Shown: positions 1 to 38,018 of the stretch, one piece after another
Layout: each line of letters starts with the position of its first letter
How positions within the stretch are numbered: position 1 is the stretch's first letter
DNA from: Accumulibacter sp.
GTDB taxonomy: Bacteria > Pseudomonadota > Gammaproteobacteria > Burkholderiales > Rhodocyclaceae
Reading direction: 5' to 3'
DNA length: 38,218 nucleotides
Assembly (NCBI GenBank): GCA_031284185.1
Contig: JAITAJ010000199.1
Span: 1 to 38,218 of the forward strand
Program-made: the position numbers and the translations under genes
The notes under the pieces: model-generated
Database searches by the model: none
What the model was told of the DNA's origin: nothing
What the model saw: the letters and a program-made list of their open reading frames with translations, nothing else

Positions 1-50
1 CCTTGACTTACTTCTCTTGGCGTAGAAAAAACTTGATTTTGAACACAGTT

Positions 51-184
51 GCTGTCTTCTCAAACCGCTCTGTCCTCTGAACCCGAGCGTTCGGTTTTCT
101 GTCCTCTGGACGGCGCGAAGCGCCGCAAACTCATCTGTCTTCTGTCCTCTCAAATTACTGTCCTCTGAACCCCGTCCTCTGAAA
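51..184. repeat. Modular palindromic/heptamer repeat element (right-half copy)
   Basis: Contains AACCCGAGCGTTCGGTTTT (80-98), CGGCGCGAAGCGCCGC (111-126) and several TCTGTC(C/T) heptamer units; same modules recur at 23078, 36580, 36773, 38019 and 38116. Confidence 0.85.
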
Positions 185-1543
185 CTATTTTCCGACGCAG
201 AAACGGCCAAATATTTCTCCGAGGAGGTCGTCCGGCGAGAATTCGCCGGTAATCGCGCCAAGCGATCGCTGGGCCATGCGCAGCTCTTCGGCGAACAGTT
301 CGAGTTGCGCGATGCGTTCGCGCGCTGCTTGCAGATGTCCGAGCGTTTCGGCGAGCGCGCGCAGATGCCGCTCGCGGGCGACGAACACTTGATCGACCGG
401 CTGCCAGCCGGCGACACGCAGCAATTCCTGCCGCAACAGGTCGATTCCGTCCCCGTTCCCCGCCGACAGCAGAATCGCCGCCCCGCTCGCCTCTTGCCGC
501 CGCTCGGGCCGCATTCCGGCCAGGTCGATTTTGTTGTGCGCGATGATCCGGGCCGGCGACGGCGGCAATCGGGCAAGAATGGCCTGCTCCGCTACGCCGA
601 TGCCTTGCCGCGCGTCGACCAGCAGCACGACGACATCGGCCTTCTCGATTTCGCGCCAGGCGCGCGCGACGCCGATCCGTTCGATCTCGTCATGGGTTTC
701 GCGCAGCCCGGCAGTGTCGATGAACCGCAGGGGGATGCCTTCGATCTGCGCGTTGCCGCGTACCACGTCGCGCGTGGTACCGGCCACCGGCGTGACGATC
801 GCCAGCTCTTCGCCGGCCAGGCGGTTGAGCAGGCTCGACTTGCCGACGTTCGGCCGTCCGGCGAGCACGACGTGCAAACCTTCCTGCAACAGACGGCCCT
901 GCCGCGCGCGCGCGATGATTTCGGCCAGTTTCGCCAGCAGGCGTTCAAGCCGGTCACAGGCATCCGTCGTTTGCAGAAAGTCGATTTCTTCGTCGGGAAA
1001 GTCGAGCGTCGCTTCCGCCAGCGCGCGCAATTCGACGAGCCGATCTCGTAGAGCATGTATTTCCCGCGAAAATTCGCCTTGCAGGGAACGCATGGCGCCA
1101 CGCGCGGCGGCGGCCGTCGAGGCGTCGATCAGGTCGATGACGGCTTCGGCCTGGGCCAGATCGAGCTTGCCGTTGAGAAAGGCGCGACGGGTGAATTCGC
1201 CCGGTTCGGCCAGCCGCGCGCCGAGTTCGAGACAGCGGTCGAGCAGCAGCTTCATCACGACCGGGCCGCCATGCCCGTGCAATTCCAGCACGTCCTCACC
1301 CGTGAAGGAGGCGGGCGCGGGAAAATGGAGCACGAGGCCGCTGTCGATGCCGCCGCCATCGGCGGCCTTGAAGTTGGCGAGGGTGGCGCGGCGCGGGGCC
1401 GGCGCCTTGCCGGTGAGCGCGGCGGCAAAGGCCGCCAGACGCCCACCCGAGACACGGACGATGCCAATGCCGCCACGACCGGGCGCCGTGGCGATGGCGG
1501 CAATCGTGTCAGGCTCTGGCGTCGTTGGCGGCCTTTCCGCCAC
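185..1543 (-). CDS. mnmE: tRNA modification GTPase MnmE (TrmE)
   Basis: [23 protein letters not shown]-terminus, [22 protein letters not shown]-motifs, C-terminal FCVGK; canonical position after yidC. Start codon uncertain (GTG at 1543). Confidence 0.97.
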
Positions 1544-3227
1544 GTTCGATCATCCGCGTGATCTGCCACTGCTGGGCAATGGACAGGATGTTGTTGACCA
1601 CCCAGTAGAGCACCAGACCTGCCGGGAAGAAGAAGAACATGATGCCGAAGGCAAAGGGCATGATCATGGCGACCTTGGCCTGGATCGGGTCGGGCGGCGT
1701 CGGGTTGAGCCTGGTCTGGATCATCATGCTAGTTATCATCACGATCGGCAGCACGTAATACGGGTCCTGCGAGGATAGGTCATGAATCCACAGGATCCAG
1801 GGGGCGTTGCGCATTTCGACGGCGCCCAGCAGCGCCCAGTAGAGGGCGATGAAGACGGGAATCTGAATGAGGATCGGCAGGCAGCCGCCCAGCGGGTTGA
1901 TTTTCTCCGTCTTGTAGAGATTCATCATCTCCATGTTCAGTTTTTGCCGGTCGTCGCCACAACGCTCCTTGAGCGCTTGCAGCCGCGGGGTCAGGGTGCG
2001 CATCCTGGCCATCGATTTGTAACTGGCCGCGGAGAGCGGGAAAAACAGCCCTTTGATGAGGATGGTCAGGATGACGATGGACCAGCCCCAGTTGCCGATG
2101 AGCTTGTTGATGACTTCAAGCAGCCAGAAGATCGGCGCGGCGACGATGGTCAGCCAGCCATAGTCGACGACCAGCGCCAGCCCCTGCGCGCCAATGCCGC
2201 CTTCGGCGACCGGCTTGGCCAGTTGATTGAGAATCGACTGAATCTGCGGACCGGCGTAAAGCGAGACGGCATGGTCGAGTTTGCTTCCGGGAGCGATCAC
2301 CGGAACAGGAACGATCAGGCCGGCAGCCACTACCGGATTGTCTCCTTCTTCGAGACTGCGCACGTAGAATTCGCGTTGCAGCTTCTCCGGCGGTATCCAG
2401 GCGGAGACGAAATAGTGCTGGATCATCGCCATCCAGCCGTTGTCGGCTTTCCGCTCAAACTTGGCGCTGCCTTTTTCGATGTCCGAGAAACCGATCTTCT
2501 GGAACTTGCCTTGCTCGGTATATTCCGCAGGCCCGGTGAAGGTGTTGACCATGCTGCTTTCACCCGCCGGCGCCCGCGTGTCGCGCTGCAACTGGTAGTA
2601 CGCATGCGCCGCGATTTCCTTGTCGCTGCCGTTGTCGATTTCGTGAGTGACGCCAATCAGGTAGCTGCCGCGCCGGAAGGTGTAAATCTTGGTCACTCTG
2701 ACGCCGTTCACGGCGGGCGCTTCCAGTTTCAACTGGATCGTATCTTCGCCATCGGGCAGTTCGCGCTTGCCCGGAAGCGGGGAAAACGAGGTCTTGTGAT
2801 TGGGCAGGCCCTCGCCGATCAGGCCGCTCTGCGCCGCATAGCGATGTTGGATGTCGAACAGCCTGAAAACCCTGGATTTGTCTTCGGTCGCCTTGTAACC
2901 CGGCAGATCCAGCCCGACCAGATCGCCTCCGCGCACGGATACCTGGGCGACGAACAGGTCGGTCCGAACTTCGACGATTTCGTCCTTGCCCACGGGCGCC
3001 GCCGGTGTCGACGCGATCACTGAATCCGCTCCGGTCGAGGCCGACGGAGCCGGTATATTCGCCGATGACGCCGGCGGCACGGCGGATGTCGATACAGGCG
3101 CGGCCGGAACGCTCGAAGACGGCGGCGGCGTCAGATCCCTGGGGTTGTTGTATTTCTGCCAGGCATCCCAAAGCATGGCCAGCGAAAAGAAGAAGACACA
3201 GAACAGGATGAGGCGTCGGTTGTCCAT
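1509..3227 (-). CDS. yidC: Membrane protein insertase YidC
   Basis: N-terminal TM, large periplasmic domain, [31 protein letters not shown] motifs; synteny with yidD/rnpA/rpmH. Confidence 0.97.
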
Positions 3228-3254
3228 GAACAGCCTACTTGGCAGATGAGGATT

Positions 3255-3473
3255 TTAAGGAACGGGATCGAAACCGCCCGGATTCCAGGGATGGCAGCGG
3301 CAGAGGCGTCTGATTCCGAGACATACGCCCTTGCGCGCTCCGTGCTTTTCGATCGCTTGGGCGGTGTAGTCGGAACAACTCGGGAAAAAGCGGCAGTTCC
3401 GCCCCAACAGCGGGCTGATCATGTAGCCATAGCAGCGAATCAGCAGCAGAAGCGGTTTCATCTTAGGGTCCAA
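3255..3473 (-). CDS. yidD: Membrane protein insertion efficiency factor YidD
   Basis: [18 protein letters not shown]...[14 protein letters not shown] signature. Confidence 0.95.
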
Positions 3474-3858
3474 TAGCGCGCACTTTTTCCAGCAGACTCC
3501 GAATTTCTTCAGCCAAGGCCCGCCTGTCGATGGGCAGGTCCGGCTTGCCCGCGAGACGAACGATCAGGTCGCGGGAAGGCAGATCGGAACACCGAACACG
3601 AAAGATTTCACGAACCAGCCGCTTGACCAGGTTGCGATCAACCGAAAGGCGAAGATGGCGCTTTGCCATTACCAGGCCCAATCGAGCGCCGCCGTTTTGC
3701 TCACTCCCGCGAGGGCCGTAATGTAACAGGAAATTCGCGCTCTTGATTGCCTTCCTGAAACTAAAAACGGATGAAAAATCATCCGTTCCAGTCAATCGAT
3801 GGCGTCTCGGAAATCCGTTCGGACGCTTTCGGCTTTCCTGTGCGGGCGGAAGGTTCAA
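3463..3858 (-). CDS. rnpA: Ribonuclease P protein component
   Basis: [29 protein letters not shown] (RNR-like motif); lies between rpmH and yidD. Start approximate. Confidence 0.92.
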
Positions 3859-3989
3859 ACGGCCAGACGATGCCGACCCTTGGCGCGGCGGGCGCGGATC
3901 ACCGCGCGGCCCCCACGGGTAGCCATGCGGACGAGAAAGCCATGCGTGCGTTTGCGGCGAACCACCGACGGTTGATAGGTACGTTTCAT
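3855..3989 (-). CDS. rpmH: 50S ribosomal protein L34 (not in ORF track, 44 aa)
   Basis: Hand translation of the minus strand from CAT at 3987-3989 to TCA at 3855-3857: [44 protein letters not shown]. Confidence 0.97.
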
Positions 3990-4026
3990 GGTAAAACCCT
4001 CGAAATCATTGCGAACCAAACCTTGG

Positions 4027-4056
4027 ATTAGATATCAAAAAGCTCAATTTTGTCAA
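4027..4056 (-). promoter_or_regulatory. Putative sigma70 promoter of the rpmH operon
   Basis: Minus strand TTGACA (4056-4051), 18-nt spacer, TCTAAT (4032-4027). Confidence 0.55.
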
Positions 4057-4073
4057 GTCCTTGCTTTCTTCCT

Positions 4074-4091
4074 TCATGGACTTTTGAATCC
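4074..4091 (+). repeat. Left break-point motif TCATGGACTTTTGAATCC (IS-end-like or att-like)
   Basis: 17/18 identical to 16040-16057; immediately upstream of the rpmH -35. Confidence 0.75.
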
Positions 4092-4207
4092 GTCCGCCTG
4101 AATGATTTCCAGATCGTCCGCCACGGGAATCGCAAACGGGCTTTCCGGCTTCATGCACATTCGCTTGCGGTTAAAATAGAAGTCTTCGGGGATCGAGGAC
4201 TTCTGCC

Positions 4208-6019
4208 GTGAACAACGCGCCCAAAAACAGTAAAGAGACCGCCGCCGTCACACTGGCAAGCAATTTCATCCGCAATATCGTCGAAGCCGATCTGGCCGCC
4301 GGCAAGCATGCTCAACGCCGTTGGTCCGGCAGGCCGGGACCGGCGTCGCAACAGCTCGAAGGCGCGCTCGATCCGGCGCGTATCCGCACCCGCTTTCCGC
4401 CGGAACCGAACGGTTATCTGCACTTCGGCCATGCCAAGTCGATCTGCCTGAATTTCGGGCTGGCGCGCGATTACGGTGGACGCTGCCATTTGCGCTTCGA
4501 TGACACCAATCCGGAAAAGGAGGAAAAGGAATATGTCGATTCGATCATCGATGCCGTGCGCTGGCTCGGTTTTTCCTGGCGGGACGGGGAGGAGGACAAC
4601 CTCTATTACGCTTCGGACTACTTCGACTGGATGGTCGCCTGCGCCGAGTATCTGATCGAATCCGGGAACGCCTACGTCGACAGCCAGAGCGCCGACGAAA
4701 TGCGCCTGAGCCGGGGCACGCTCACCGAATCCGGCAAGGATTCGCCCTACCGCAAGCGCGGCCCGGAAGAAAACATGCTGCTGTTCCGCCGTATGCAGAC
4801 CGGGGAATTCCCGGATGGCGCGCACATCCTGCGCGCCAAGATCGACATGGCCTCGCCCAACATCAATCTGCGCGACCCGGCGATCTACCGCATCCGCCAC
4901 GCCGAACATCACAACACGGGCAACCGCTGGTGCGTTTATCCGATGTATACCTTCGCTCATCCGATCGAGGACGCATTGGAGAACATCACACATTCGATCT
5001 GTACCCTGGAATTCGAGGATCAGCGGCCCTTCTACGACTGGCTGCTGGAGCGCCTGGCCGAAGGCGGCCTCTTGCAGTACCCGCTGCCGCAGCAGATCGA
5101 GTTCTCGCGTCTGAACCTGACCTACGTCGTGCTCTCCAAGCGTAAACTCATCCAGTTGGTCGAGGAAAAGCACGTTTCCGGCTGGGACGATCCACGGATG
5201 CCGACCATCGTCGGCGCGCGCCGCCGCGGGTATACGCCGGAGGGCTTCCGCCTGTTTGCCGAGCGCATCGGCGTGTCCAAGGCCGACTCATTGATCGATT
5301 ACACGCTGTTCGAGGATTGCATGCGCGAGGTGCTCAACGAATCGACCGAGCGTCGCGTCGCCGTGCTCGATCCGTTGAAGCTGATCATCGATAATTACCC
5401 GGCGGGCCATACCGAGGAATGCTTCGCGCCCAATCATCCGTTGAAGCCGGAACTCGGAAAGCGCATGATGCCTTTTGGCCGCGAGCTGTGGATCGAGCGC
5501 GAGGATTTCATGGAAACGCCGGCGCAGGGTTACCACCGGCTTTATCCCGGCAATGTCGCCCGGTTGCGCCACGGTTTCGTGATCAGATGCACCGGCTGCG
5601 ACAAGGATGACAGCGGCAAGGTCGTCGCCGTGCATGGCGAATACCTGCCGGATTCCAGGAGCGGCACGCCCGGCGCTGACAATTACAAGGTCAAGGGCAA
5701 CCTGCACTGGGTGTCGGTGATCGACGCTCATCAGGCCGAGGTGCGCCTCTATGATCGCCTCTTTGCCAATCCCGCCCCTGGATCGGGTGAGCGTGATTTC
5801 CTCGATGACCTGAACCCGAACAGCGTTCGAGTCATTACCGCGCAACTGGAACCCACGCTGAAAAACGCCGGACGGGAGGAACGCTTCCAGTTCGAGCGGC
5901 ATGGCTATTTCGTTGTCGACCCCGTCGATTCGCGCGAGGGCGCGCCGGTCTTCAACCGGACGGTAACGCTCAAGGATTCGTGGGGAAGAGCGGGACAGAA
6001 GGAATCGGCCCGCCGTTGA
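4208..6019 (+). CDS. glnS: Glutamine--tRNA ligase
   Basis: RTRFPPEPNGYLHFGH (HIGH), LRFDDTNP, VLSKRKL (KMSKS-like), FQFERHGYF, FNRTVTLKDSW. Confidence 0.97.
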   Translation: MNNAPKNSKETAAVTLASNFIRNIVEADLAAGKHAQRRWSGRPGPASQQLEGALDPARIRTRFPPEPNGYLHFGHAKSICLNFGLARDYGGRCHLRFDDTNPEKEEKEYVDSIIDAVRWLGFSWRDGEEDNLYYASDYFDWMVACAEYLIESGNAYVDSQSADEMRLSRGTLTESGKDSPYRKRGPEENMLLFRRMQTGEFPDGAHILRAKIDMASPNINLRDPAIYRIRHAEHHNTGNRWCVYPMYTFAHPIEDALENITHSICTLEFEDQRPFYDWLLERLAEGGLLQYPLPQQIEFSRLNLTYVVLSKRKLIQLVEEKHVSGWDDPRMPTIVGARRRGYTPEGFRLFAERIGVSKADSLIDYTLFEDCMREVLNESTERRVAVLDPLKLIIDNYPAGHTEECFAPNHPLKPELGKRMMPFGRELWIEREDFMETPAQGYHRLYPGNVARLRHGFVIRCTGCDKDDSGKVVAVHGEYLPDSRSGTPGADNYKVKGNLHWVSVIDAHQAEVRLYDRLFANPAPGSGERDFLDDLNPNSVRVITAQLEPTLKNAGREERFQFERHGYFVVDPVDSREGAPVFNRTVTLKDSWGRAGQKESARR

Positions 6020-6034
6020 AATTCACGTGAAATC
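6019..6034. promoter_or_regulatory. Degenerate parS-like palindrome
   Basis: AAATTCACGTGAAATC, 11/16 match to TGTTTCACGTGAAACA with intact TTCACGTGAA core; intergenic, just after the glnS stop. Confidence 0.4.
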
Positions 6035-6078
6035 CGGCGCCGCGCGGAGTCGAAGTCACCATGAAACCGAATGGAAAC

Positions 6079-7494
6079 CTATAGCTGGAAGGCCACCCAC
6101 AGCAGCAGACCTTCGGCCAGCGCCCACGCCCGGCCTGGCCATCGACAGGAATAGGGCTTGCAGCCCCCGCGCAGCGACTCCACCCAGCGCGCAAAATCCA
6201 TGACAGCCGACTGATCGTAGAAAGCGATCATCATTTCGTAGTTGAGGAAGAGGCTGCGCCCGTCGAGGTTGGCCGATCCGACCAGTGCCAGTTCATCGTC
6301 TATCAATATGGCTTTGGCATGTACCATGCGCGGATGCAGCCAGACGCGCGCGCCCGCGAGGATCATGTCGCGCAAGGCGCGATGGCGGGCGAAATCGGCC
6401 AGCTTGTGATTCGACCGCTCCGGCATCACCAGATCGACCTCGATCCCGCGGCGGGCCGCCAGCGTCAGTGCCATCAACAACGAGGAATCGGGAACGAAAT
6501 ACGGCGTGACCGCGAGGATGCGTTGCCGCGAGGTGAAACAGGCCGAAACCAGCAAGGTGAAGATGGTATCGTCCGCGCGATCGGGACCGCTGTCGATCAA
6601 CTGCGCCAGGGCCGGCGTCGCGCCGGCGGCGCCGCGCACGGCGGCATCGACGCTGGCCGGCGTTTCTTCCCTTTCATTGGCGAAGGCCCAGTCGCGCTCG
6701 AACTGTCCATAGACCTGCGCCACCAGTTCGCCGGAAAGATCGAAGGAAAGATCGATCCACGGTGTACGCCGAAAAATCGGCCGGGGATCGCCCTCGAAGT
6801 ATTCCGCCGCCAGATTTCTCCCCCCGCACCAGAGATACTTCCCGTCGGCAATGACCATCTTGCGATGGTTGCGCAGATTGGTTCGCCCGCGTTTGGAAGA
6901 GCTGAACGGCGGTACGAAGCGGACGACCTCGATGCCGGCCTTGCTCAGTTTCCGCAGATTGGGATAGCCGCCCAGGTAGATACCGATGCCGTCGATCAGC
7001 AGCCTTACACGCACACCGGCGCGCGCCCGCCGTTCAAGCAGCCTGAGAATTTCACCGCCAAGCACGTCCCGGCCAATGAGAAAGGTCGATATGTCGAGAC
7101 TGGAGGTGGCGCCGGAAATGAGGCGGCGCAAGCCATTCAACGCGCTGCTGCCGTCGGCGTGGATGTTCAGGCTGTCGTAGGAAGCGGGATCGGGAAGCCC
7201 CATGGCCGCGCCCAGTTGCAGCGAGCGGAGCATCGTCGGGTGGCCGGTCGCCGCCGGGATCGAAATGGCATGAGCTTTCGGAGGCTTGCGCAAGGCCGCC
7301 ACCTTGCGGCTGCCAAAAGCCAGATAGAGCGGCAAGGCCAAATAGGGCACCAGCAGAATGCCAAGCACCCAGGCGATCGCCGCCGATGGATGGCGGCGCT
7401 GGTTCAAGGTCCGGGAAACGCTGGCATAGATGGTGAGGCCCACCATGACCAACAACACATCGAGCACCTGCCAGTTTGCCCAGATGAAATCCAT
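6079..7494 (-). CDS. cls: Cardiolipin synthase (ClsA-type phospholipase D)
   Basis: N-terminal TM helices (SAAIAWVLGILLVPYLALPLYLAFGSRK), two HKD motifs (NHRKMVIADG, VHAKAILIDD), TPYFVP, SLFLNYE. Start placed at MDFIW (7494) after a purine-rich RBS. Confidence 0.88.
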   Translation of the reverse strand: MDFIWANWQVLDVLLVMVGLTIYASVSRTLNQRRHPSAAIAWVLGILLVPYLALPLYLAFGSRKVAALRKPPKAHAISIPAATGHPTMLRSLQLGAAMGLPDPASYDSLNIHADGSSALNGLRRLISGATSSLDISTFLIGRDVLGGEILRLLERRARAGVRVRLLIDGIGIYLGGYPNLRKLSKAGIEVVRFVPPFSSSKRGRTNLRNHRKMVIADGKYLWCGGRNLAAEYFEGDPRPIFRRTPWIDLSFDLSGELVAQVYGQFERDWAFANEREETPASVDAAVRGAAGATPALAQLIDSGPDRADDTIFTLLVSACFTSRQRILAVTPYFVPDSSLLMALTLAARRGIEVDLVMPERSNHKLADFARHRALRDMILAGARVWLHPRMVHAKAILIDDELALVGSANLDGRSLFLNYEMMIAFYDQSAVMDFARWVESLRGGCKPYSCRWPGRAWALAEGLLLWVAFQL

Positions 7495-7611
7495 CACCAA
7501 TCCGATTCCCCTTCTGTCAAGTCTCCCGGCGGGCGCGAGCGAAAGCCCGCCCCATGCCATGTCTGGCTTCTGGCGTGCCGCTGGTCTGGACGCCCGTTCA
7601 GACCAGCGGCC

Positions 7612-9441
7612 TCACTCCACGGTAACCGATTTGGCCAGATTGCGCGGCTTGTCGACGTCCGTCCCACGTACCAGGGCCACGTGGTAGGCCAGTAGTTGCA
7701 GCGGAACCACGTGCAGCAACGCGGAAAGCTGTCCGTAATGTTCGGGCAGGCGCACCAGGTGTACACCGTCCGTCGCCGCGATTTCACTGTCGGCGTCGGC
7801 AAATACATAAAGCTCGCCACCCCGCGCCCGGACTTCCTGCAAATTCGATTTCAGCTTTTCCAGCAGCGCGTCGTTCGGCGCCACGGCGATCACGGGCATG
7901 TTCTTATCTACCAGGGCCAGCGGCCCATGCTTCAACTCGCCGGCCGGATACGCTTCGGCATGGATGTAGGTGATTTCCTTGAGCTTGAGAGCCCCTTCGA
8001 GCGCGATCGGATAATGGCGTCCGCGCCCGAGAAACAGCGCGTTCTGTTTCATGGCGAAGCGCTCCGCCCATTCCTGGATCCGTGGTTCGAGTTCGAGCAC
8101 GCGCGAGACGGCCATCGGCAGATGGCGCAAGCGTTCGAGTTCGGCTGTCATGGTGACGTCGGACAGCCGTCCGCGCAACTTGGCAATGACCAGAGTCAAC
8201 AGATACAGCGCGGCGAGCTGTGTGGTAAACGCTTTGGTGGAAGCCACACCGATCTCCGGACCGGCACGTGTGATGAAGCGCAGATCGTTTTCACGTACCA
8301 GCGAGGATTCCGGTACGTTGCAGATGCACAGCGTCCGTTGCATGCCCGAGGATTTCGCATGGCGCAGCGCGGCCAGCGTGTCCGCCGTCTCGCCGGACTG
8401 GGAGAGCGTGATCACCAGGGTGCGCGGATCGGCGACTGATTCGCGGTAGCGATATTCGCTGGCTGCCTCGACGTTGCAAGGCACTCCGGCCAATGCTTCG
8501 AGCCAGTAGCGAGCGACCAGGCCGGCGTGATAGCTGGTGCCACAGGCGATGATCAGCACCTGCCTCAAGTCCTTGAGATTGTCTTCGCAATGAGCGCCGA
8601 AAAATCCCGGATGAACGCTGCGCACTGCGCCTATCATCTCCAGGGTATTACTCAGAGCCGTCGGCTGCTCGAATATTTCCTTTTGCATGTAATGCCGGTA
8701 TTGGGCGAGTTCGATCGAGTCGGCCGAGAGATGGGTTTCACTTTCGGGACGCTCGACCGGCGTACCGTCGACGCGCGTGATACGGTAGCCCACGCGCGTC
8801 AGTTCCGCGCAGTCACCGTTCTCCAGATAAATGATGCGGCGCGTCACCGGCAACAACGCCGAGGCATCCGAGGCCGCGTAGTTGCCTTCGGTGGATAAAC
8901 CAATCAACAGGGGCGAACCTTCACGCGCGACGATCACGTGTCCAGGCTCGGACTCACGCAGAACGGCCAGCGCGTACGCGCCTTGCAGTTGAGCGATCGC
9001 CGCGCGTGTCGCCACGAAAAGATCCGCCGTCTTCTTCAGCTCGGAAACGATCAGATGCGCCACGACCTCGGTGTCCGTATCCGAGGTAAACTCGAATTTT
9101 TCGTCTTTCAGGCGCGCGCGCAGGGCCTCGTGGTTTTCGATGATTCCATTGTGTACGATGGCAAGGCCGCCGGAAACGTGCGGATGCGCATTGCGCTCGT
9201 TGGGCGCGCCGTGTGTCGCCCAGCGCGTGTGAGCGATTCCTGTCTTGCCGTCGACATGCGACGCTTCGGCCTGCGCGGCCAGCTCGGCGACCCGTCCGAC
9301 CGAGCGCAGACGCTTCATTCCCGTCTTGTCGATCAGCGCCAGTCCGGCCGAATCGTAGCCGCGATATTCGAGTCGGCGCAGACCTTCCAGGAGAACGGAA
9401 ACGATATTGCGGTCCGCAACCGCCGCGACGATGCCACACAT
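7612..9441 (-). CDS. glmS: Glutamine--fructose-6-phosphate aminotransferase
   Basis: MCGIV N-terminus, [46 protein letters not shown]. Confidence 0.98.
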
Positions 9442-9541
9442 GATTCATCCGTCCAGAGTGAGGGGAAGGGGAGAGAAAGCGCCGAAGCGGATTTTATTCC
9501 AATTCCGGCAGATGGTGACGCGAAGGTGTGGCGTAGTCGTT

Positions 9542-9557
9542 CGTTTCACGTGAAACA
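9542..9557. promoter_or_regulatory. parS centromere-like site
   Basis: CGTTTCACGTGAAACA, 15/16 to the consensus TGTTTCACGTGAAACA; followed by a tandem duplication of CACGTGAAA. Confidence 0.85.
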
Positions 9558-9568
9558 CGTGAAACGGC

Positions 9569-10486
9569 TCATCCCGAAATTTTGAGCGTGCCGAAAGGCG
9601 GCGCATCACTGATCGCCGCGTGCAGAACGTCGATCACCTGGGGACGAGGGAAAGTGACTCTCCAGGCCAGTCCGACCCGCCGCATCGGTTGCGGCGCGGA
9701 AAAGCGGCGTATCTGGAGCAGCTTCGGGTTTTGCGGCCACGATTTCGCTGCCGATATCGGAACCACCGAAATTCCCGCGCCGCTTGCGACCATGTGTCTG
9801 ATCGTTTCCAGGGAACTCCCTTCCAGCGCGCCTTCGATTCCCCCCGGCTCGGAGAGCTTCGGACAGGCTTCGATCACCTGATCACGAAAACAATTCCCTT
9901 TCCCAAGCAATAACAAATTCTCGGCGGCAACCTGCGCGCTCGATATCACCTTGTTGGACGCCAGAGGATGATCATTGGGCAAAGCAACACAGAAGGGCTC
10001 GTCATATGCCGGGCGAACGACGATTCCGGGTTCCGTGAAAGGAAGCACGATGACGATCACGTCCAGTTCGCCCCGTCGCAACTGTTCGCTCAGATTGACC
10101 GTGAAGTTCTCGCTGATGAACAGCGGCATTTGCGGCGCGTGTGTGTGCAAGGCTGGAATGAGCCTGGGAAGAAGATAGGGGGCGATGGTGTAAATGACTC
10201 CCAGACGCAAGGGCCCGACCAATGGATTTCTGCCCTGTCCGGCAATGTCCTTGAGGCGCTCGGCCTCGTGCAAGACCCGCTCCGCTTGTTGCGCGATCTT
10301 CTCTCCGACCGGAGTCGGACGGACATCGGCGGGAGTTCTTTCAAACAGCGTGATGTTCAGGCGTGATTCAACCTTTTTCAACGCTACCGAAAGCGTCGGC
10401 TGGCTCACATGACATTTTTCCGCCGCACGCCCGAAATGACGCTCACGCGCCAGGCTCACGATGTAGCGAAGCTCGGTAAGCGTCAT
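9569..10486 (-). CDS. oxyR: Hydrogen peroxide-sensing LysR regulator OxyR
   Basis: MTLTELRYIV..RERHFGRAAEKCHVSQPTLS HTH; redox cysteines in GNCFRDQVIEAC (C199/C208 equivalents); EGSSLETIRHMVASG. Confidence 0.92.
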   Translation of the reverse strand: MTLTELRYIVSLARERHFGRAAEKCHVSQPTLSVALKKVESRLNITLFERTPADVRPTPVGEKIAQQAERVLHEAERLKDIAGQGRNPLVGPLRLGVIYTIAPYLLPRLIPALHTHAPQMPLFISENFTVNLSEQLRRGELDVIVIVLPFTEPGIVVRPAYDEPFCVALPNDHPLASNKVISSAQVAAENLLLLGKGNCFRDQVIEACPKLSEPGGIEGALEGSSLETIRHMVASGAGISVVPISAAKSWPQNPKLLQIRRFSAPQPMRRVGLAWRVTFPRPQVIDVLHAAISDAPPFGTLKISG

Positions 10487-10510
10487 TGGCGGTTCGCTGG
10501 CGCCTATCGG

Positions 10511-13018
<2,508 letters not shown>

Positions 13019-13119
13019 CGGTAGCAACACAAAACGAGCCGCAGATGCGATCCGAGCAATATCAGGCGAAACGACCCGAACCACAAAGACATCAGCGTAC
13101 CAGTGAGCTGGAATCGACG

Positions 13120-14232
13120 TCAGATTCTCATCGGCATCACGACGTACTTGAAGAACTCGTTGCCCGGCAGGGTCAACAAGGCGCTGGAATTGGCATCGTT
13201 GAAACCCCATTCGACGAATTCCGACGAGGCATTGTTGAGAACATCGAGCAAGTAACCGACGTTGAATCCCACGTCGATCGCATCCCCGGAATAATCGGTC
13301 TCGATTTCTTCCTGCGCTTCCTCGTGCTCCGCATTTGCCGCTACGATCTTCAAACTGCCCGGCGTCAGGATCAGGCGCACTCCCCGGAACTTTTCGTTGG
13401 TCAGAATCGCGGCTCGATTCAAGGACTGTAGCAAGGTAGTCCTGCTCAGGGTGACCGAATTCTTGAGACTTGGCGGAATGACCCGCTCATAGTCCGGGAA
13501 TTTTCCGTCGATCAACTTGGAAACCAAAACGATATTTCCGAACTGGAAGCGAATCTGGGCCGCCGTCATTTCAATCAGCACCGGGTCATCGCTGTCGGCA
13601 AGTAAACGGCTCAATTCGAGCACGGTCTTGCGCGGCAGAATGAGTTCCTGCTTCGGCACCGAAACATTTTCACCAAATGTCATATGAGCATACGCCAGCC
13701 GATGCCCGTCGGTCGCCACCGCTCGCAATTCGCCGCCATCAACCAACAGCAAGAGCCCGTTCAAATAGTACCGGACATCCTGCAACGCCATCGCGAACTG
13801 GGTCTGTGCCAACAAGTGACGAAACTGCTTCTGAGTCAACTCGATTCTTTTCGGCTCGGTTTCCGACATCGCCATGCGTGGAAAATCCTCGTCCGGCAAG
13901 GTCTGTAAATTGAAACGGCTCTTTCCGGCCTTGATCTGTAGCCGCTTGTCTTCGAGAGCGAGCGTGATTTCGCAATCGTCCGGCAAAGAACGCAAAATGT
14001 CCTGGAGTTTTCTCGCACCGACCGTCATTGCACCATCCCCATCCCCGGCTGACACTTCCGCCGAGGTGGTGATCTGTATCTCGATATCCGTTGCCAGAAA
14101 AGTCAACCTGTCGCCCTTCTTCTCCAGCAGGACGTTGGACAGGATCGGCAAGGTGTGGCGTTTCTCCACAATACCGGAAACCGACTGGAGAGGAACGAGA
14201 AGTGAATCGCGTTGAGTTTTCACTAGTATCAT
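13120..14232 (-). CDS. dnaN: DNA polymerase III beta sliding clamp
   Basis: HTLPILSNVLL, QDVRYYLNG, ATDGHRL, GKFPDYERVIP, YVVMPMRI. Confidence 0.98.
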   Translation of the reverse strand: MILVKTQRDSLLVPLQSVSGIVEKRHTLPILSNVLLEKKGDRLTFLATDIEIQITTSAEVSAGDGDGAMTVGARKLQDILRSLPDDCEITLALEDKRLQIKAGKSRFNLQTLPDEDFPRMAMSETEPKRIELTQKQFRHLLAQTQFAMALQDVRYYLNGLLLLVDGGELRAVATDGHRLAYAHMTFGENVSVPKQELILPRKTVLELSRLLADSDDPVLIEMTAAQIRFQFGNIVLVSKLIDGKFPDYERVIPPSLKNSVTLSRTTLLQSLNRAAILTNEKFRGVRLILTPGSLKIVAANAEHEEAQEEIETDYSGDAIDVGFNVGYLLDVLNNASSEFVEWGFNDANSSALLTLPGNEFFKYVVMPMRI

Positions 14233-14464
14233 TTTTATATAAATCCTATAAAGAGATAATCTTCAGAACAACTCTGTGGGTATCCTGAAATAATACTTGG
14301 ATATCAATGTGTTGGGTGAAAAAATGCACGTGCGGAACCCCTGTACTGTCTTGTGGATGAAAGTTGATAACTTGTTCACAGATGCATTTTCACGACTTTA
14401 TCTACCTTTTGAACACAGCTTTTTCACCCGGTTATCCACAACCCCTGCAGCCGGCTCCAGGGAG
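14233..14464. other. Probable chromosomal replication origin (oriC)
   Basis: dnaA-dnaN intergenic region. DnaA boxes: TTATCCACA 14432-14440 (perfect), TGTGGATGA 14352-14360, TTGTTCACA 14372-14380, AGTTGATAA 14362-14370, TGTGGGTAT 14275-14283, TTATCTACC 14398-14406. IHF consensus TATCAAtgtgTTG 14302-14314. AT-rich DUE-like tract at about 14230-14270. Confidence 0.8.
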
Positions 14465-15844
14465 CTAGCCTTTCAGTACCTGTAATAATACGTGTACATT
14501 GTGGTTGAGTTCATTATCCTTTTCACGCAAGGTGTCGATCGTCCGTACGGCGTGCAGAACCGTCGTATGATCGCGCCCGCCGAAGGCTTCGCCAATGGAT
14601 GGATAGCTTTGTGAAGTCAGGTTCTTGGCCAACCACATGGCGACTTGCCGGGGACGCGCTATCAGGCGTGAGCGCTTTTTTGAAAAAAGGTCCGAGACCT
14701 TGATCTTGAAATAGTCGGCGACCGTTTTCTGGATATTTTCTACGGTAATCTGACGGTTCACGGCGCCAATGAGATCCTTCAAGGCCTCCTTGGTCAATTC
14801 GAGATTGATCCTTCGTCCATAAAAGGATGCGTAAGCCAGCACCTTGTTCAACGCGCCTTCAAGCTCACGCACGTTCGAGTGAAGGTGTTTGGCGATGTAG
14901 AACGCGACCTCGTTATCGAGCGCAATCCCCTTGGTTTCCGCTTTTTTCTTCAGGATCGCCACGCGCATTTCTGTTTCCGGAGGCTCGACCTGTACCGTAA
15001 GTCCCCAGTCGAAACGGGTGATCAGGCGGTTTTCGAGCCCGGAAACATTCTTCGGGTAGGTGTCGCAAGTGATCACGATCTGCTTTTTCGTCTCGGTCAA
15101 TGTATTGAAGACGAAAAAAAACTCTTCCTGCGTCCGGTTCTTGCCGTTGAAGAACTGAACGTCATCGAGCAACAGGACGTCGAGCGAACGGTAATAATGC
15201 TTGAAGGCATCGAACGATTCCGTCTGGTAGGCACGCACCAAGTCAGAAAAATAGTCCTCCGCATGGACATAGCGGATGATCTTTTCGGGGCACTGCTTCA
15301 CGATGTGATTGCCGATGGCGTGGATGAGGTGGGTTTTTCCAAGCCCGGCTCCACCGTAAATGAACATCGGGTTGTAGGCGCCTTCGCCCGGATTCGTGGC
15401 TACGTGCAGCGAGGCGGCGCGCGCCAGATCGTTGGCCTTGCCGACGACCAGATTGTCGAAGCTGAAACTTTGGATCAGGCGCGTCTTTTCGTAGGCGTGG
15501 ATCGAGTAGGTTTTTGAAGCAGGCATATTGACGAAGCTGGGGCGACTGATCGACGCCGCCGGCTTCAAATCTTCGGAATCGGTGGACTGTCCGGCTTGCT
15601 GAAGCTCAACGGACAGGGAAATACAGACCGGGGCGGAGAAGTACTGATTGCCAAGCTCTTCGATGCGCCCGAGGTAGCGCTCCTTCACCCACTTCAGGAT
15701 GAACCCGTTTGGCGCTACGAGACGCAACTCCTTGTCCAGGGCATCCTCACCCTCCAGACGCAACGGACGAATCCAGGTGTTGAATTGCTGGGGTGAAAGC
15801 TCCTGCTCGAACTGACTCAGACAAGAATTCCAGAAACTGCCCAT
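14465..15844 (-). CDS. dnaA: Chromosomal replication initiator DnaA
   Basis: QQFNTWIRPL, GGAGLGKTHL, LLLDDVQF, SNVRELEGAL, FGGRDHTTVLHA. Start moved to MGSFW (15844); the ORF-track extension is likely spurious. Confidence 0.97.
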   Translation of the reverse strand: MGSFWNSCLSQFEQELSPQQFNTWIRPLRLEGEDALDKELRLVAPNGFILKWVKERYLGRIEELGNQYFSAPVCISLSVELQQAGQSTDSEDLKPAASISRPSFVNMPASKTYSIHAYEKTRLIQSFSFDNLVVGKANDLARAASLHVATNPGEGAYNPMFIYGGAGLGKTHLIHAIGNHIVKQCPEKIIRYVHAEDYFSDLVRAYQTESFDAFKHYYRSLDVLLLDDVQFFNGKNRTQEEFFFVFNTLTETKKQIVITCDTYPKNVSGLENRLITRFDWGLTVQVEPPETEMRVAILKKKAETKGIALDNEVAFYIAKHLHSNVRELEGALNKVLAYASFYGRRINLELTKEALKDLIGAVNRQITVENIQKTVADYFKIKVSDLFSKKRSRLIARPRQVAMWLAKNLTSQSYPSIGEAFGGRDHTTVLHAVRTIDTLREKDNELNHNVHVLLQVLKG

Positions 15845-15992
15845 TGCTAATATTTCAATAAAACCGAGACACGCTGGTTGATGAACACTCACGACTTTGA
15901 CACGGATTCGACGCGGAAAACGCATGATGCCTTGACCATCGCCGATGTTTCTCCGATGAACGGACGAACACCGACGACGCATTCAAGTCGGA

Positions 15993-16023
15993 ATTCTAAC
16001 CCGAGCGGGAATAGTTATCCACA
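15993..16023 (-). promoter_or_regulatory. dnaA promoter with overlapping DnaA box (autoregulation)
   Basis: Perfect TTATCCACA at 16015-16023 over the -35 region; minus-strand TAGAAT at 15998-15993. Confidence 0.7.
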
Positions 16024-16039
16024 GCCCGCGAAAAAATTA

Positions 16040-16057
16040 TCATGAACTTTTGAATCC
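16040..16057 (+). repeat. Right break-point motif TCATGAACTTTTGAATCC (IS-end-like or att-like)
   Basis: 17/18 identical to 4074-4091; 16 bp upstream of the dnaA-promoter DnaA box. Confidence 0.75.
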
Positions 16058-16395
16058 TCCTGTCCGGCAAACGGATGGCAAGTCTCCCCCGTCCATCATG
16101 CCGTCGCCTTCGTTTTCATCGGGTCGTTGAAATCGACGGTGCTTGGCAAGCGTCGCATTCCCGCCGCTCCTTCCACCTTTCTCAGGGAAATGGACAGGCT
16201 CGGCATCCATGCAACTGCTCCGGTGAGCCGCATCCTGACGCCTGACGTCCTGAGCCGTGCTAAACTCGGAAAGACAAACGATCGATTTTTCCAACATTGT
16301 CTCCTTTTTTTTCGTCCGCGTCGCAGTCGCGCTCCACTCCCGGCAAGCGCGTCGTCCGCGTCCACAAACCTGATGGGAATGCGAGGAAGGACCGG

Positions 16396-22771: not shown

Positions 22772-22971
22772 TTATGCACAAAACTGTGTCGCCGCCAGCG
22801 ATTGCCGCAGAAAACCAGAAAAATCAGGAGCTTATTTTTATCTACATGATTTTATTGTGTTTTTTTGATTGCTGTTTTTTGCGGCAAGGGGTGACAAATC
22901 CTTGAAATGCTTGGATTCGGGACGTTTCGCCATGCACAATCCACAAACTTATCCACAGAAAATGTGCACAA
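22772..22971. promoter_or_regulatory. Second DnaA-box/IHF cluster
   Basis: TTATGCACA 22772-22780, CAATCCACA 22937-22945, TTATCCACA 22949-22957, TGTGCACAA 22963-22971; IHF-like AATCAGgagcTTA 22822-22834; T-rich tract 22832-22880. Confidence 0.7.
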
Positions 22972-23077
22972 CGGAAAATAGCCCGGCAGCTTAAGGAGTT
23001 ACGGTGGTTTTGCAGAAACCGGACGAGCAAGATGCGCCAAGTTACTCGCGGGATCATCGTAAATGCTCTGAATATAT

Positions 23078-23158
23078 GCGGCGCTTCGCGCCGGGTAAGA
23101 CGGAAAAACCGAGCGCTCGGGTTCTCTGTCTTCTGACTCCTGTCTTCCGTTCGCTGAA
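23078..23158. repeat. Modular palindromic/heptamer repeat element
   Basis: GCGGCGCTTCGCGCCGGGTAAGACGGAAAAACCGAGCGCTCGGGTTCTCTGTCTTCTGACTCCTGTCTTC, abutting the pilin stop codon. Confidence 0.85.
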
Positions 23159-23878
23159 CTACGGCAACCGGCCGGCGGCGATCATGCGGTTGAAGAGGAG
23201 GTAAGGCGGAATCCAGACGAGGATGTCGTCGAATTCCCCGCCGGTGGGGACGTTGGACGGTTCGCGGGCGAAGAACGTCTCCGTCGCGGTAGCGTTGGCA
23301 TCCTCGTCCGCGTTCGTCGCCGAATCATCCGCGATGGCCGCGCCGTCGGACGTGCTTCCCCAGTTGTTTTTTCCGAAGGAAAAAATCACGGCGGGCGCGC
23401 AGGGAGACGAACCGCAAGCGCTGTCGGAACCGACGAGATAACTCAAGGCGCCGGCACTGTCCCGCGTCCGCACCTTTTTTCCGCCGGACACGGCCAGGGT
23501 GAAGGCGGCGTTCGCATACGCGCGGGCAACGCTGTAGCGGATCATTTTGTTCCATGCGTCGGTTTTTTTCACGCCCAGGGTGCTCCAGGGAATGAAGCCG
23601 GTACAATCGGACTCGCCGGCGCAACCGGCCGGATTTTCCAGCCCGTCGGTCAGCGAGGTGGCCGGGCGCGGAAGACGTCCGTGGGCGACGGCAAAGCCGA
23701 TCAATGATTCGCGTATTTCATCCAGCTGCCGCCGCGTCCCGTTGTAGTTGCGCCGATCGATTTGCGCCGAGAGCGGAACCGTCATTCCTCCGATCAGCGC
23801 GGCCACGATGACCAGCACGATGGCCAGTTCGGCCAGCGTGAACCCCTTGTTCGTCGAATGCCGCAAGACGGGTTTCAT
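23159..23878 (-). CDS. Type IV prepilin-like (pseudo)pilin
   Basis: MKPVLRHSTNKG|FTLAELAIVLVIV class III signal peptide with E5; ATG overlaps the upstream stop (ATGA). Confidence 0.88.
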   Translation of the reverse strand: MKPVLRHSTNKGFTLAELAIVLVIVAALIGGMTVPLSAQIDRRNYNGTRRQLDEIRESLIGFAVAHGRLPRPATSLTDGLENPAGCAGESDCTGFIPWSTLGVKKTDAWNKMIRYSVARAYANAAFTLAVSGGKKVRTRDSAGALSYLVGSDSACGSSPCAPAVIFSFGKNNWGSTSDGAAIADDSATNADEDANATATETFFAREPSNVPTGGEFDDILVWIPPYLLFNRMIAAGRLP

Positions 23879-25101
23879 GGCTCGGCCCGAAGCTGATCGT
23901 TGCTGCTCGCGCCTGGAGCGGAGAAATTCGGATCGCCCGACCAGCCATCCGTGTTGGCCGCGTCTTCGAGATAATCCGGGAGCGCCGTTGACGGACGGTG
24001 CTGTCCGGCGCGCGCCGCGCCGGGGGCGAAGAGCACGTATTTCTCCGGTTTTCCGTCGACGTTCAGAAAGGTCGCGCAACCGGCGCCGCTGTCGTGGATC
24101 GCGTAGATCATGACGCGCCCCCATCCATTCTGCGAAAACCACGGCGCAAGGCCGGAAGCGGCAAGATCCTCGGGAAACCGGCCGAGGCAGGTCGGCGTCA
24201 CGCCGTCACCGGCGCACGGAGTGACGGCCGACTTCACGTCCCCGATGGACGACGTGCAGCCGGGGGCATCGAAGGGCGCGGGATTCGGATAGCGCCCATT
24301 GTCATCGGCATACTTCTTCAATGCTTTCCCCGCTTCATTCAAGGCGCGTTTCTCCAGTCCGGACAGAAGTTCCCGCGCGGTGATGCCGACGATCAGATCG
24401 TTCACGACGCGATTGCCGCCGGAATCCTTCGCCGGCCCCGCGATGAACGGTCCGCCGGCCTTGGCGTTGTTTTTTCCGTCGAAGGCGTCGAGATAGCTCG
24501 ACGCGGCGTCCGGCAGAGCCTCCCTGTCTTGTCCCGGCAGCGGGGGACCGGGCGCGAAGATGACGGCGGAGAGTTCCTCGCCGGCGGGCGTCAGAAGCGT
24601 GCTTCCATCGGCGGCGTAAAGTAGCAGCGTGCCTTTCGTATCGCTGTTGATCGCGGCCTTGGCGAGCTCCGGATTGCGGAAACTGTCGCTGACCGCGTAC
24701 CAGAGCATTTCGCCATGAGCGTCACGCAATCTGTCCATGCCGAGGGATTTCCAGGGCAGACGGCCCAGGGACGTTCCTCCGCCGATGGAACAGCTTCCCG
24801 AGGCGTTGCCCGATTCGGTGTCGCCGAAAAATTTGGTATCGGGACAAGGCAGGGTACCCGGGCGATGATGGCTGTCCGCCCCGAAATCGCCCCGCACGAC
24901 CGCCCAGGCGATGAGCGCCTGTTTGGCTTGCATCAGCGTTTCAAAGGTTCTTTGCCGCCGCTCGGCATCCGGGTCGCTTTCGGCCAGCGAGGCGATCAGA
25001 AACGCGCTGAACGCCAGCGTCATCGCCAGCAGCATGATGAGCAGCGCGGCCCCCGCGCTCGCGCGCGGATGCGGATATTCCGCGCGCCGTTTGCCGTTCA
25101 T
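23875..25101 (-). CDS. PilX/MshP-like large minor pilin, Cys-rich
   Basis: RASAG|AALLIMLLAMTL (pilin-like leader lacking E5), several Cys pairs, translationally coupled in the operon. Confidence 0.65.
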   Translation of the reverse strand: MNGKRRAEYPHPRASAGAALLIMLLAMTLAFSAFLIASLAESDPDAERRQRTFETLMQAKQALIAWAVVRGDFGADSHHRPGTLPCPDTKFFGDTESGNASGSCSIGGGTSLGRLPWKSLGMDRLRDAHGEMLWYAVSDSFRNPELAKAAINSDTKGTLLLYAADGSTLLTPAGEELSAVIFAPGPPLPGQDREALPDAASSYLDAFDGKNNAKAGGPFIAGPAKDSGGNRVVNDLIVGITARELLSGLEKRALNEAGKALKKYADDNGRYPNPAPFDAPGCTSSIGDVKSAVTPCAGDGVTPTCLGRFPEDLAASGLAPWFSQNGWGRVMIYAIHDSGAGCATFLNVDGKPEKYVLFAPGAARAGQHRPSTALPDYLEDAANTDGWSGDPNFSAPGASSNDQLRAEP

Positions 25102-27705: not shown

Positions 27706-27712
27706 GGGACGC

Positions 27713-30621: not shown

Positions 30622-30630
30622 CCGTGGGCG

Positions 30631-33668: not shown

Positions 33669-33807
33669 TTTTTGGAAAACAGATGAGTGCGACGCGCGCA
33701 ACGGACGCGACGGAAAGATTTATTCGCTTTGTGCCATTCGCCGTGCCCGAATCGTGGTTTTGAGGATCATCGCAAATTTTTCTCAAATAATCGAGTCGCG
33801 CGCGCCG

Positions 33808-36527: not shown

Positions 36528-36535
36528 CGCAGGAC

Positions 36536-36650
36536 TTCAGAGGACGGAGGCTGGAGAGGACGGAAGACCGATTGGTTCGGGCGCTTCGTGCCGGGGAATG
36601 GACGAAAAACCGGGCACGTTTCAGAGGGCGGAGGCTTGAGAAGACGGAGA
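36536..36650. repeat. Degenerate repeat element in the regulator leader
   Basis: TTCAGAGGACGGAGGCTGGAGAGGACGGA (from 36536) is repeated imperfectly from 36620; GGCGCTTCGTGCCGG...GACGAAAAACCGGGC lies between the copies. Confidence 0.7.
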
Positions 36651-36882: not shown

Positions 36883-36884
36883 TC

Positions 36885-38010: not shown

Positions 38011-38018
38011 TCAATTTG

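What the first reader, a model, noticed from the sequence alone, without database searches (positions are those of the whole stretch)
4074..16057. The ~12 kb oriC/parS block is inverted between two halves of a split 30-bp palindrome (recombinase- or transposase-driven origin inversion)
Established: rpmH and dnaA are normally divergent from one short shared promoter region. Seen: here both are on the minus strand, ~12 kb apart. The rpmH promoter is followed by cctt-CATG-GACTTTTGAATCC (motif 4074-4091) and the dnaA promoter by ttat-CATG-AACTTTTGAATCC (motif 16040-16057), 17/18 identical. Flipping the block between the two CATG cores gives (i) ...TGTCAAgtccttgctttcttcctt-CATG-ataattttttcgcgggcTGTGGATAA..., a normal compact rpmH/dnaA divergent promoter region, and (ii) GGATTCAAAAGTc-CATG-aACTTTTGAATCC, a 30-bp palindrome with one mismatch. 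Inference: this geometry fits either two back-to-back transposon ends attacking a palindromic target (Tn10-type inversion), or an attP-like palindrome recombining with an attB-like site at a CATG core, which could make the origin cassette invertible. The block contains oriC, dnaA-dnaN-gyrB and all parS sites seen, so gene orientation relative to the forks is preserved, which would let it be tolerated. No catalytic gene lies in this window.
Basis: partly seen in the sequence, partly recalled or inferred. Interest (0 to 1): 0.82.

Follow-up and report, generated by a model that had tools for sequence, protein, structure and literature searches.

The report
Origin-spanning inversion with transposon-like scars
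In this bacterium a 12-kb piece of chromosome carrying the replication-start genes is flipped relative to its relatives and has the same 18-base stretch at both ends, likely the scar of a long-gone jumping DNA element rather than a working switch, which makes it an ordinary kind of rearrangement.

Summary
rpmH and dnaA are co-oriented 12 kb apart, and a 17/18-identical 18-mer sits at both breakpoints; its 12-bp core occurs only twice in the genome. 47 of 53 genus relatives keep rpmH–dnaA divergent, 4 are broken or interrupted at the same spacer (one by a transposase gene), 2 are unresolved. Contigs of the likely source run show both junctions and no alternative at about 8x, so the inversion is real and appears fixed. 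Best reading (0.5): CATG is a duplicated target and the 13-bp arms are eroded ends of an IS or MITE; rival (0.28): break in a hairpin loop joined by microhomology. An active invertible origin is unlikely (0.07). The scan's earlier notes hold one loosely similar case in another genome.

The parts
4075..16044 (.). Inverted block, 11,970 bp, between the two CATG cores
   Evidence: polarity from relatives
4074..4091 (+). Left breakpoint repeat (TCATG + 13-bp arm); junction 1, rpmH promoter joined to glnS upstream DNA
   Evidence: crossed by contig 1303-4108 of run X1
16040..16057 (+). Right breakpoint repeat (TCATG + 13-bp arm); junction 2, dnaA promoter joined to rsmB upstream DNA
   Evidence: crossed by contig 14759-16309 of run X1
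4092..4157 (.). Unassigned DNA between the left repeat and the conserved glnS upstream region; candidate element remnant, no homologue found
16058..16234 (.). Unassigned DNA between the right repeat and the conserved rsmB upstream region; candidate element remnant, no homologue found
3855..3989 (-). rpmH (L34), first gene of rpmH-rnpA-yidD-yidC-mnmE, outside the block
   Evidence: NCBIfam TIGR01030
4051..4056 (-). Conserved TTGACA hexamer upstream of rpmH (likely the -35 box), left half of the broken spacer
   Evidence: alignment of relatives
16015..16023 (+). DnaA box upstream of dnaA, right half of the broken spacer; sigma-70-like site 16021-15993 on the minus strand
14465..15844 (-). dnaA
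   Evidence: TIGR00362
14233..14464 (.). Likely oriC: conserved DnaA boxes and AT-rich end next to dnaN; about 10.3 kb from the left and 1.7 kb from the right breakpoint
   Evidence: inferred, not tested
13120..14232 (-). dnaN
   Evidence: TIGR00663
13003..13018 (.). parS-like palindrome
10511..12979 (-). gyrB
   Evidence: TIGR01059
9569..10486 (-). OxyR-like LysR regulator (below the curated cut-off)
9542..9557 (.). parS-like palindrome
7612..9441 (-). glmS
   Evidence: TIGR01135
6079..7560 (-). Cardiolipin-synthase-like gene (below the curated cut-off)
4208..6019 (+). glnS
   Evidence: TIGR00440
16297..17676 (+). rsmB (sun), first gene right of the block
   Evidence: TIGR00563

Best explanation
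The 12-kb block with dnaA, dnaN, gyrB and both parS sites is inverted relative to relatives, and the 18-mers at its ends are likely the scars of a one-off, now fixed event: a small insertion element (IS or MITE) with 13-bp terminal inverted repeats likely entered the palindromic site TCATGA in the rpmH-dnaA spacer, duplicating CATG, and the inversion would then have had its second break inside that element. Each half of the broken promoter spacer thus kept one target copy plus one element end read inward, and the body of the element has since eroded. The 30-bp palindrome need never have existed. Shown: the inversion, the two repeats at the breakpoints, a single orientation in the run's contigs, the spacer as a recurrent break site. 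Inferred: the identity of the arms as element ends, the order of events, oriC. It is tolerated because the break falls between the two promoters' conserved boxes, genes keep their orientation to the forks, and the origin moves by only about 8.6 kb (inference).
For: Geometry: both halves of the broken spacer are followed by CATG and the same 13-bp arm, and the flanking T on both sides is what a 6-bp palindromic target gives; target copies left inverted beside element ends are the described signature of IS-made inversions (PMC4471558, passages). The arm is AT-rich (33% GC) while only 1 of 57 native hairpins with >=12-bp stems has a stem at <=34% GC. The same spacer is broken or interrupted in 4 of 51 resolvable relatives, and in G038 an rve-type transposase gene (relatives named 'transposase InsO family protein') starts right after the rpmH hexamer. 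G000 holds fragments of several IS families (DDE_Tnp_1 4 matches, DDE_3 4, IS110 4, one serine-recombinase fragment). The 38-kb window maps to 5 distant places of the complete relative G057. The re-flipped 39-bp spacer resembles in length and T-tracts the 37-bp spacer of G048, sister to G000 in the DNA tree (85.8/80).
Against: No element with these ends was found: the core occurs only twice in G000; 36 matches of the 11-mer in 21 of 53 genus genomes are in unrelated contexts; 300 order genomes give 21 matches, at most 2 per genome, about the level of the reversed control; nothing in plasmids, viral or metagenome contigs. No distal inverted repeat (<=4 mismatches of 12) in either remnant and no significant likeness between the remnants (129 of 500 shuffles reach the score). 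No transposase fragment in the remnants. The joined remnants fold no better than shuffles (z -1.6, 0.05, -0.4). The first base of the arms differs (G/A). The 'target duplication' test is passed automatically because CATG is a palindrome. The protein tree puts G046 (19-bp spacer) as sister instead (0.655).
Confidence: 0.5

Rival explanations
1. A natural hairpin (the 30-bp palindrome, extendable by 3 more pairs over a one-base bulge) lay between glnS and rsmB; a break or template switch in its loop was joined to the rpmH-dnaA spacer through about 6 bp of microhomology around CATG, in one reciprocal step without any mobile element.
For: One step explains all letters, with no erosion needed. The reconstructed junction folds at -19.2 kcal/mol (DNA parameters) against -6 to -8 for the other three junctions. 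The genome has 57 hairpins of this size class. Palindromes are known to drive rearrangement in E. coli (PMC3315005, abstract only). A REP-like hairpin family of another genus in the family shares 18 of 20 bases with 4075-4094.
Against: No relative shows the hairpin upstream of glnS or rsmB; the 18 GTDB matches to the arm-loop-arm pattern have varied loops and come from unrelated taxa by their titles. The stem is unlike native hairpins in GC. The cited experiment used a 246-bp palindrome and gave inverted duplications, not clean inversions. In the REP-like family the motif is itself the stem-loop centre, a different geometry. Loss-free reciprocal joins on 4-6 bp without an enzyme are uncommon (own knowledge).
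Confidence: 0.28
2. The 18-mer was copied from one breakpoint to the other during repair (templated insertion), or the two copies are leftovers of several successive rearrangements, so that neither an element end nor a palindrome is involved.
For: Five synteny breaks in 38 kb against G057; the order oxyR-glmS-cls-glnS-rsmB that the re-flip implies was seen in none of the 5 close relatives searched.
Against: Does not explain why the shared stretch begins with a palindromic TCATG/A site on both halves of the same broken spacer; a single flip restores both the rpmH-dnaA link and the dnaA-to-rsmB polarity seen in at least 14 relatives.
Confidence: 0.1
3. A site-specific recombinase (serine integrase, tyrosine invertase or IS110-type enzyme) recombined an attP-like palindrome with an attB-like site at CATG and could still flip the origin cassette.
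For: The reconstruction has the form arm-core-arm times unrelated-core-unrelated. G000 encodes a third tyrosine recombinase besides two Xer-like ones, and IS110 fragments. Logan contigs drop rare variants, so a minor orientation cannot be excluded.
Against: The present sites are direct repeats with only a 4-8-bp symmetric core; no recombinase gene in the window; no alternative junction in run X1; the site is not conserved in any relative; IS1111 spacing (7+3) is not met.
Confidence: 0.07
4. The arrangement is an assembly or library artefact.
For: Low depth (about 7-9), fragmented assembly (404 contigs); run X1 may be the source of the assembly and so is not independent; the contig over junction 1 ends 30 letters after CATG, one short of the tool's bridging rule; a perfect 40-bp palindrome ends another contig of this assembly.
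Against: A separate assembly of the reads crosses both junctions and holds no record that lies only partly on 3800-4380; an 18-bp repeat is shorter than the usual assembly word sizes (own knowledge); an artefact would have to create two reciprocal junctions and remove the originals.
Confidence: 0.05

Closest known systems
IS-mediated inversion by intramolecular transposition in trans (IS26, Tn4401; PMC4471558, passages read)
   Same: A target site is split, and its two copies end up inverted, each next to an element end, at the ends of an inverted segment; arm length (13 bp) is like the 14-bp IS26 repeats.
   Different: There two complete element copies with both ends and a transposase remain; here only one 13-bp arm per junction, no distal ends, no transposase, and the element is unidentified.
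Origin-centred chromosomal inversions (RASR; PMC9584773, passages read; PMC5850607, search listing and start of abstract only)
   Same: Inversion spanning dnaA/oriC that keeps genes in the same orientation to the forks; same sequence at both breakpoints.
   Different: Those surveyed are >50 kb and flanked by repeats abundant in the genome; this one is 12 kb, breaks inside the rpmH-dnaA promoter spacer, and its repeat is an orphan in direct orientation.
IS1111/IS110 elements and Piv-type inversion (PMC11187229, passages read)
   Same: Near-perfect 11-13-bp inverted repeats; family members can invert DNA; IS110 fragments exist in this genome.
   Different: IS1111 ends carry 7-bp and 3-bp extensions (10 bp between repeats in the joined form), here 6; none of the 20 IS110 loci fetched carries the motif beyond two weak 4-mismatch hits.
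CGTC/GTAG REP palindromes (PMC3733652, passages read) and the REP-like hairpin of genus g97 (G266, G149, G443, G373)
   Same: Short intergenic palindrome; 18 of 20 bases shared between 4075-4094 and the g97 hairpin core.
   Different: CGTC REPs have 8-9-bp stems, 4-5-bp loops and many copies; this sequence is present twice only, and in g97 the motif is the centre of the hairpin, not one arm.
Site-specific invertible segments (Hin/hix, FimB/E, shufflons; recalled, from no call)
   Same: A defined segment bounded by short related sites.
   Different: Those have inverted sites, a recombinase gene close by and mixed orientations; none of the three is found here.

Membership tests
IS-mediated inversion (intramolecular transposition, incl. 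Tn10-type) | Target duplication split and inverted across the two junctions | tested here: inconclusive
   CATG fits, but any palindromic tetramer inside the shared stretch fits automatically
IS-mediated inversion (intramolecular transposition, incl. Tn10-type) | Two element bodies, each with a distal inverted repeat | tested here: not met
   No distal repeat at <=4 mismatches in 4092-4210 or 16058-16300; remnants not alike
IS-mediated inversion (intramolecular transposition, incl. Tn10-type) | A transposase or further copies with the same ends | tested here: not met
   assembly 86.6% complete; ISfinder not available
Split IS/MITE (one element, broken inside) | Terminal inverted repeats facing inward from both halves of one target | tested here: met
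   13-bp arms, 12 identical, follow CATG on both halves of the rpmH-dnaA spacer
Split IS/MITE (one element, broken inside) | Multi-copy family or structured interior | tested here: not met
   Single-copy depth at both junctions; interior folds like shuffles
Origin-centred inversion (RASR) | Spans dnaA and the origin | tested here: met
   dnaA and the conserved dnaA-dnaN DnaA-box spacer lie inside; oriC itself is inferred
Origin-centred inversion (RASR) | Breakpoints in a repeat abundant in the genome | tested here: not met
   Core occurs twice; self-comparison shows no repeat cover at either breakpoint
IS1111 | 11-13-bp subterminal inverted repeats | tested here: met
   12-bp perfect arms (definition from PMC11187229)
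IS1111 | 7-bp and 3-bp terminal extensions, adjacent DEDD transposase | tested here: not met
   6 bp between arms in the reconstruction; no IS110-family match on this contig
Site-specific invertible segment / attP x attB | Sites in inverted orientation around the segment | tested here: not met
   Longest inverted match between the two zones is 8 bp; the 18-mers are direct
Site-specific invertible segment / attP x attB | Cognate recombinase | tested here: inconclusive
   None in the window; elsewhere 3 tyrosine recombinases and 1 serine fragment; the large-serine-recombinase domain was not searched on its own; specificity not testable
Site-specific invertible segment / attP x attB | Both orientations in the population | tested here: not met
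   One orientation in contigs of run X1 at depth about 7-9; rare variants are invisible
CGTC/GTAG REP | 8-9-bp stem, 4-5-bp loop, tens to thousands of copies | tested here: not met
   12-bp arms, two copies

The most novel reading that the evidence does not exclude
The two 18-mers are the attL/attR-like products of an undescribed recombinase (or of an IS110-type RNA-guided enzyme) that recombines a 30-bp palindrome with a nearly unrelated site at a symmetric CATG core, and that can still flip the whole origin-dnaA-parS cassette at a frequency too low to appear at 8x depth.
Probability: 0.06. Interest if true: 0.7.

Novelty: new member of a known kind. Interest (0 to 1): 0.22.

Why it matters
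As a fixed scar it is a tidy example of a common process: origin-spanning inversions are described as the dominant large rearrangement in bacteria (PMC9584773). Its modest value is that it shows the short spacer between the rpmH and dnaA promoters to be a recurrent, tolerated break site in this genus (5 of 52 resolvable genomes counting this one), and that it may preserve the ends of an element not found in the genomes searched. It would matter much more only if the cassette still flipped, which would be a switchable replication origin; nothing found here supports that.

Tried and rejected
Motif as a genus repeat or IS end: 36 of 36 matches fetched, unrelated contexts or orthologous genes. Exact or near motif in the 5 closest genomes asked: 2 hits at 2 mismatches, both in G038. 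Family draw of 400: 29 matches at <=1 mismatch against 5 for the reversed control; the only family with a shared context is a REP-like hairpin of genus g97; two 2-copy cases in other genomes had unrelated flanks where fetched. Order draw of 300: background. GTDB palindrome scan: 18 unrelated hairpins. JGI metagenomes: 3 chance hits. IMG/VR: 1 hit, unrelated flanks. PLSDB blastn and tblastn: nothing significant. Both repeats end a minus-strand frame in TGA, which could be a transposase C-terminus; no family or homologue. Longer likeness beyond the 18-mer: not significant. My own idea that removing the extra bases restores exactly 20 bp was dropped because the cut point was freely chosen (note). 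Restriction-enzyme origin of the CATG ends: CATG is not avoided in the genome (O/E 1.04). Rfam: no match in the window. GC skew in the window is too weak to place the origin. Runs X2 and X3 hold next to none of the stretch and say nothing. The 40-bp palindrome sharing GATTCAA on C394 sits at the contig's very end and was set aside as a likely assembly end effect. Paper searches for this arrangement (rpmH + dnaA + inversion + oriC + insertion sequence; palindrome + inversion + template switching; Rhodocyclaceae + termite + MAG) listed nothing on it; only listings were seen, so this does not show that it is not in print. No supplements were consulted.
Full report
What is there. The window is contig C259 of a 2.53-Mb, 404-contig, 86.6%-complete assembly; the one public run that holds it is labelled termite gut metagenome. 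From left to right: mnmE-yidC-yidD-rnpA-rpmH (minus), glnS (plus), a cardiolipin-synthase-like gene, glmS, an OxyR-like gene, gyrB, dnaN, dnaA (all minus), then rsmB and downstream genes (plus) (18 of 28 proteins scanned had an NCBIfam match at 1e-20, none a recombinase or transposase; yidD and rnpA are named from position and recall). The two 18-mers lie at 4074-4091 and 16040-16057, differ at one base and are in direct orientation. Their 12-bp core occurs twice in the assembly. Between zones of these sizes, an 18-bp match with one mismatch was reached by 1 of 400 random genome pairs and 0 of 400 shuffles.

The inversion is real. Reading the coordinates by hand (with for G018), 43 of 53 genus relatives have rpmH and dnaA divergent on one contig; 3 more were confirmed by fetching and G063 keeps the promoter link at a contig end: 47 linked. 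G017 and G038 have other genes upstream of both rpmH and dnaA; G013 has other genes upstream of rpmH and G044 has no DnaA box in the 210 bp to its contig end, and dnaA was not found in either: 4 broken or interrupted. G001 and G050 are unresolved. In at least 14 relatives rsmB lies 14-23 kb downstream of dnaA in the same direction, which is the polarity that the re-flip restores. In run X1 one contig crosses junction 2 with over 250 letters on each side and another crosses junction 1, ending 17 letters past the repeat; on 3800-4380 only these two single-copy records of X1 lie, none partly, so neither re-flipped junction is represented. Limits: depth about 7-9, X1 may be the source sample, contigs drop rare variants, and the tables were cut (1 joint and 263 loose ends not shown).

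Where it broke. In relatives the rpmH-side TTGACA hexamer and the dnaA-side DnaA box are 19-22 bp apart in 19 of 22 distinct spacers; the others are 38, 50 and over 200 bp, and G048, missed by that pattern, has 37. The re-flip gives 39. Yet G048 and the dnaA side of G038 also carry a doubled T-tract, and G048 is sister to G000 in a DNA tree of 13 genes (85.8/80; G046 is the weakly supported sister in the protein tree), so a 39-bp ancestral spacer is plausible though unattested. All four other breaks fall just after the same hexamer; in G038 a transposase gene of the rve type starts there. The spacer is thus a recurrent, tolerated break site, likely because it is the only gap between two promoter elements (inference).

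What the block holds. The dnaA-dnaN spacer has DnaA boxes and an AT-rich end conserved across 10 aligned genomes and is likely oriC; both good parS sites of the assembly are inside. An inversion spanning the origin leaves every gene's orientation to the forks unchanged and here shifts the origin by about 8.6 kb (10.3 against 1.7 kb). Origin-centred inversions are reported as the commonest large rearrangement in bacteria, usually with repeats at both ends (PMC9584773, passages). A second DnaA-box cluster conserved in G057 and G038 lies outside the block, so the statement that all origin elements are inside is not established.

What the 18-mer is. It is not a repeat family of this genome, of the genus, or of 300 genomes of the order; in 400 family genomes the only repeated context is a REP-like hairpin of genus g97 whose centre matches 4075-4094 at 18 of 20 bases, a lead that may be chance and has a different geometry. 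The genome carries decayed IS fragments and three tyrosine recombinases, none on this contig and none seen with this end. The 66- and 177-bp stretches behind the repeats have no homologue, no distal repeat and no likeness to each other.

Mechanism. The simplest mobile-element history needs no palindrome and no distal ends: an element with 13-bp ends enters TCATGA in the spacer and duplicates CATG; an inversion with its second break inside the element carries one end away with dnaA; the interior erodes. This matches the described signature of IS-made inversions, target copies inverted beside element ends (PMC4471558, passages), the AT-rich arm and the precedent in G038, but the element is unidentified, so I give it 0.5. 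A hairpin-loop break joined by microhomology explains the letters in one step (fold -19.2 kcal/mol) but has an untypical stem and no witness in relatives: 0.28. Templated copying or several steps: 0.10. A site-specific, still invertible cassette: 0.07, since the sites are direct, unconserved, without a neighbouring enzyme and in one orientation. Artefact: 0.05. Tn10-type and replicative variants require two element bodies and fail that test; IS1111 fails the end-spacing test (PMC11187229, passages); REP families fail on size and copy number (PMC3733652, passages).

Verdict. A real, apparently fixed 12-kb origin-spanning inversion with a neat but orphan breakpoint scar: a new member of a known kind, interest 0.22.

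Noticed in passing
window 22772-22970: A cluster of DnaA boxes (one perfect, two with one mismatch) with a T-rich stretch downstream of hemE, conserved in G057 and G038; could be a DnaA-titrating or reactivating site or a second origin part.
   Followed up: partly
L136 (G040:C43) about 1500-1720: G040 has an inverted oriC-like copy (80% like the dnaN-proximal end of this window's dnaA-dnaN spacer, with DnaA boxes) inserted in its rpmH-dnaA spacer while keeping the normal dnaA-dnaN spacer: an apparent doubled origin.
   Followed up: partly
G044, G013, G001, G050: dnaA was not found with this window's protein in these four genomes, although G044 is rated 95% complete and its rpmH promoter is cut off from any DnaA box; loss or missing contig.
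   Followed up: no
L064 1-760 (G038:C96): An rve-type transposase gene begins directly behind the rpmH hexamer; a similar short sequence follows the hexamer in G044.
   Followed up: partly
window 1-196, 23074-23160, 36530-36891, 37935-38183: Very abundant palindromic and tandem repeat family: up to about 500 self-matches in the assembly, 676 copies of its 11-bp tag at <=1 mismatch, summed contig depth near 19,000 in run X1; repeats touch 183 of 808 contig ends.
   Followed up: partly
L120-L131 (G266, G149, G443): REP-like hairpin family of genus g97 with a 13-bp stem; 9 copies at <=2 mismatches in G266.
   Followed up: partly
window 4074-4091 and 16040-16057: As direct repeats the 18-mers could in principle delete the 12-kb block as a circle with the likely origin, dnaA, dnaN, gyrB and parS, which would be lethal to the rest of the chromosome; no such joint was listed.
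   Followed up: partly
G000:C394 11756-11795: A perfect 40-bp palindrome forms the very end of this contig, likely an assembly end effect.
   Followed up: yes
G000:C131 6831-7823: A third tyrosine recombinase next to a pentapeptide-repeat-like gene (label from the sequence's look), downstream of trxA-rho; possible island edge.
   Followed up: no
window 23159-36527: MSHA-type pilus gene cluster (MshL secretin above cut-off, PilB-like ATPase) on the minus strand, joined to hemE only in this genome among the five compared.
   Followed up: no
window 15956: Run X1's contig reads G where the window has A, at full depth, so assembly and run differ by at least a few bases.
   Followed up: no
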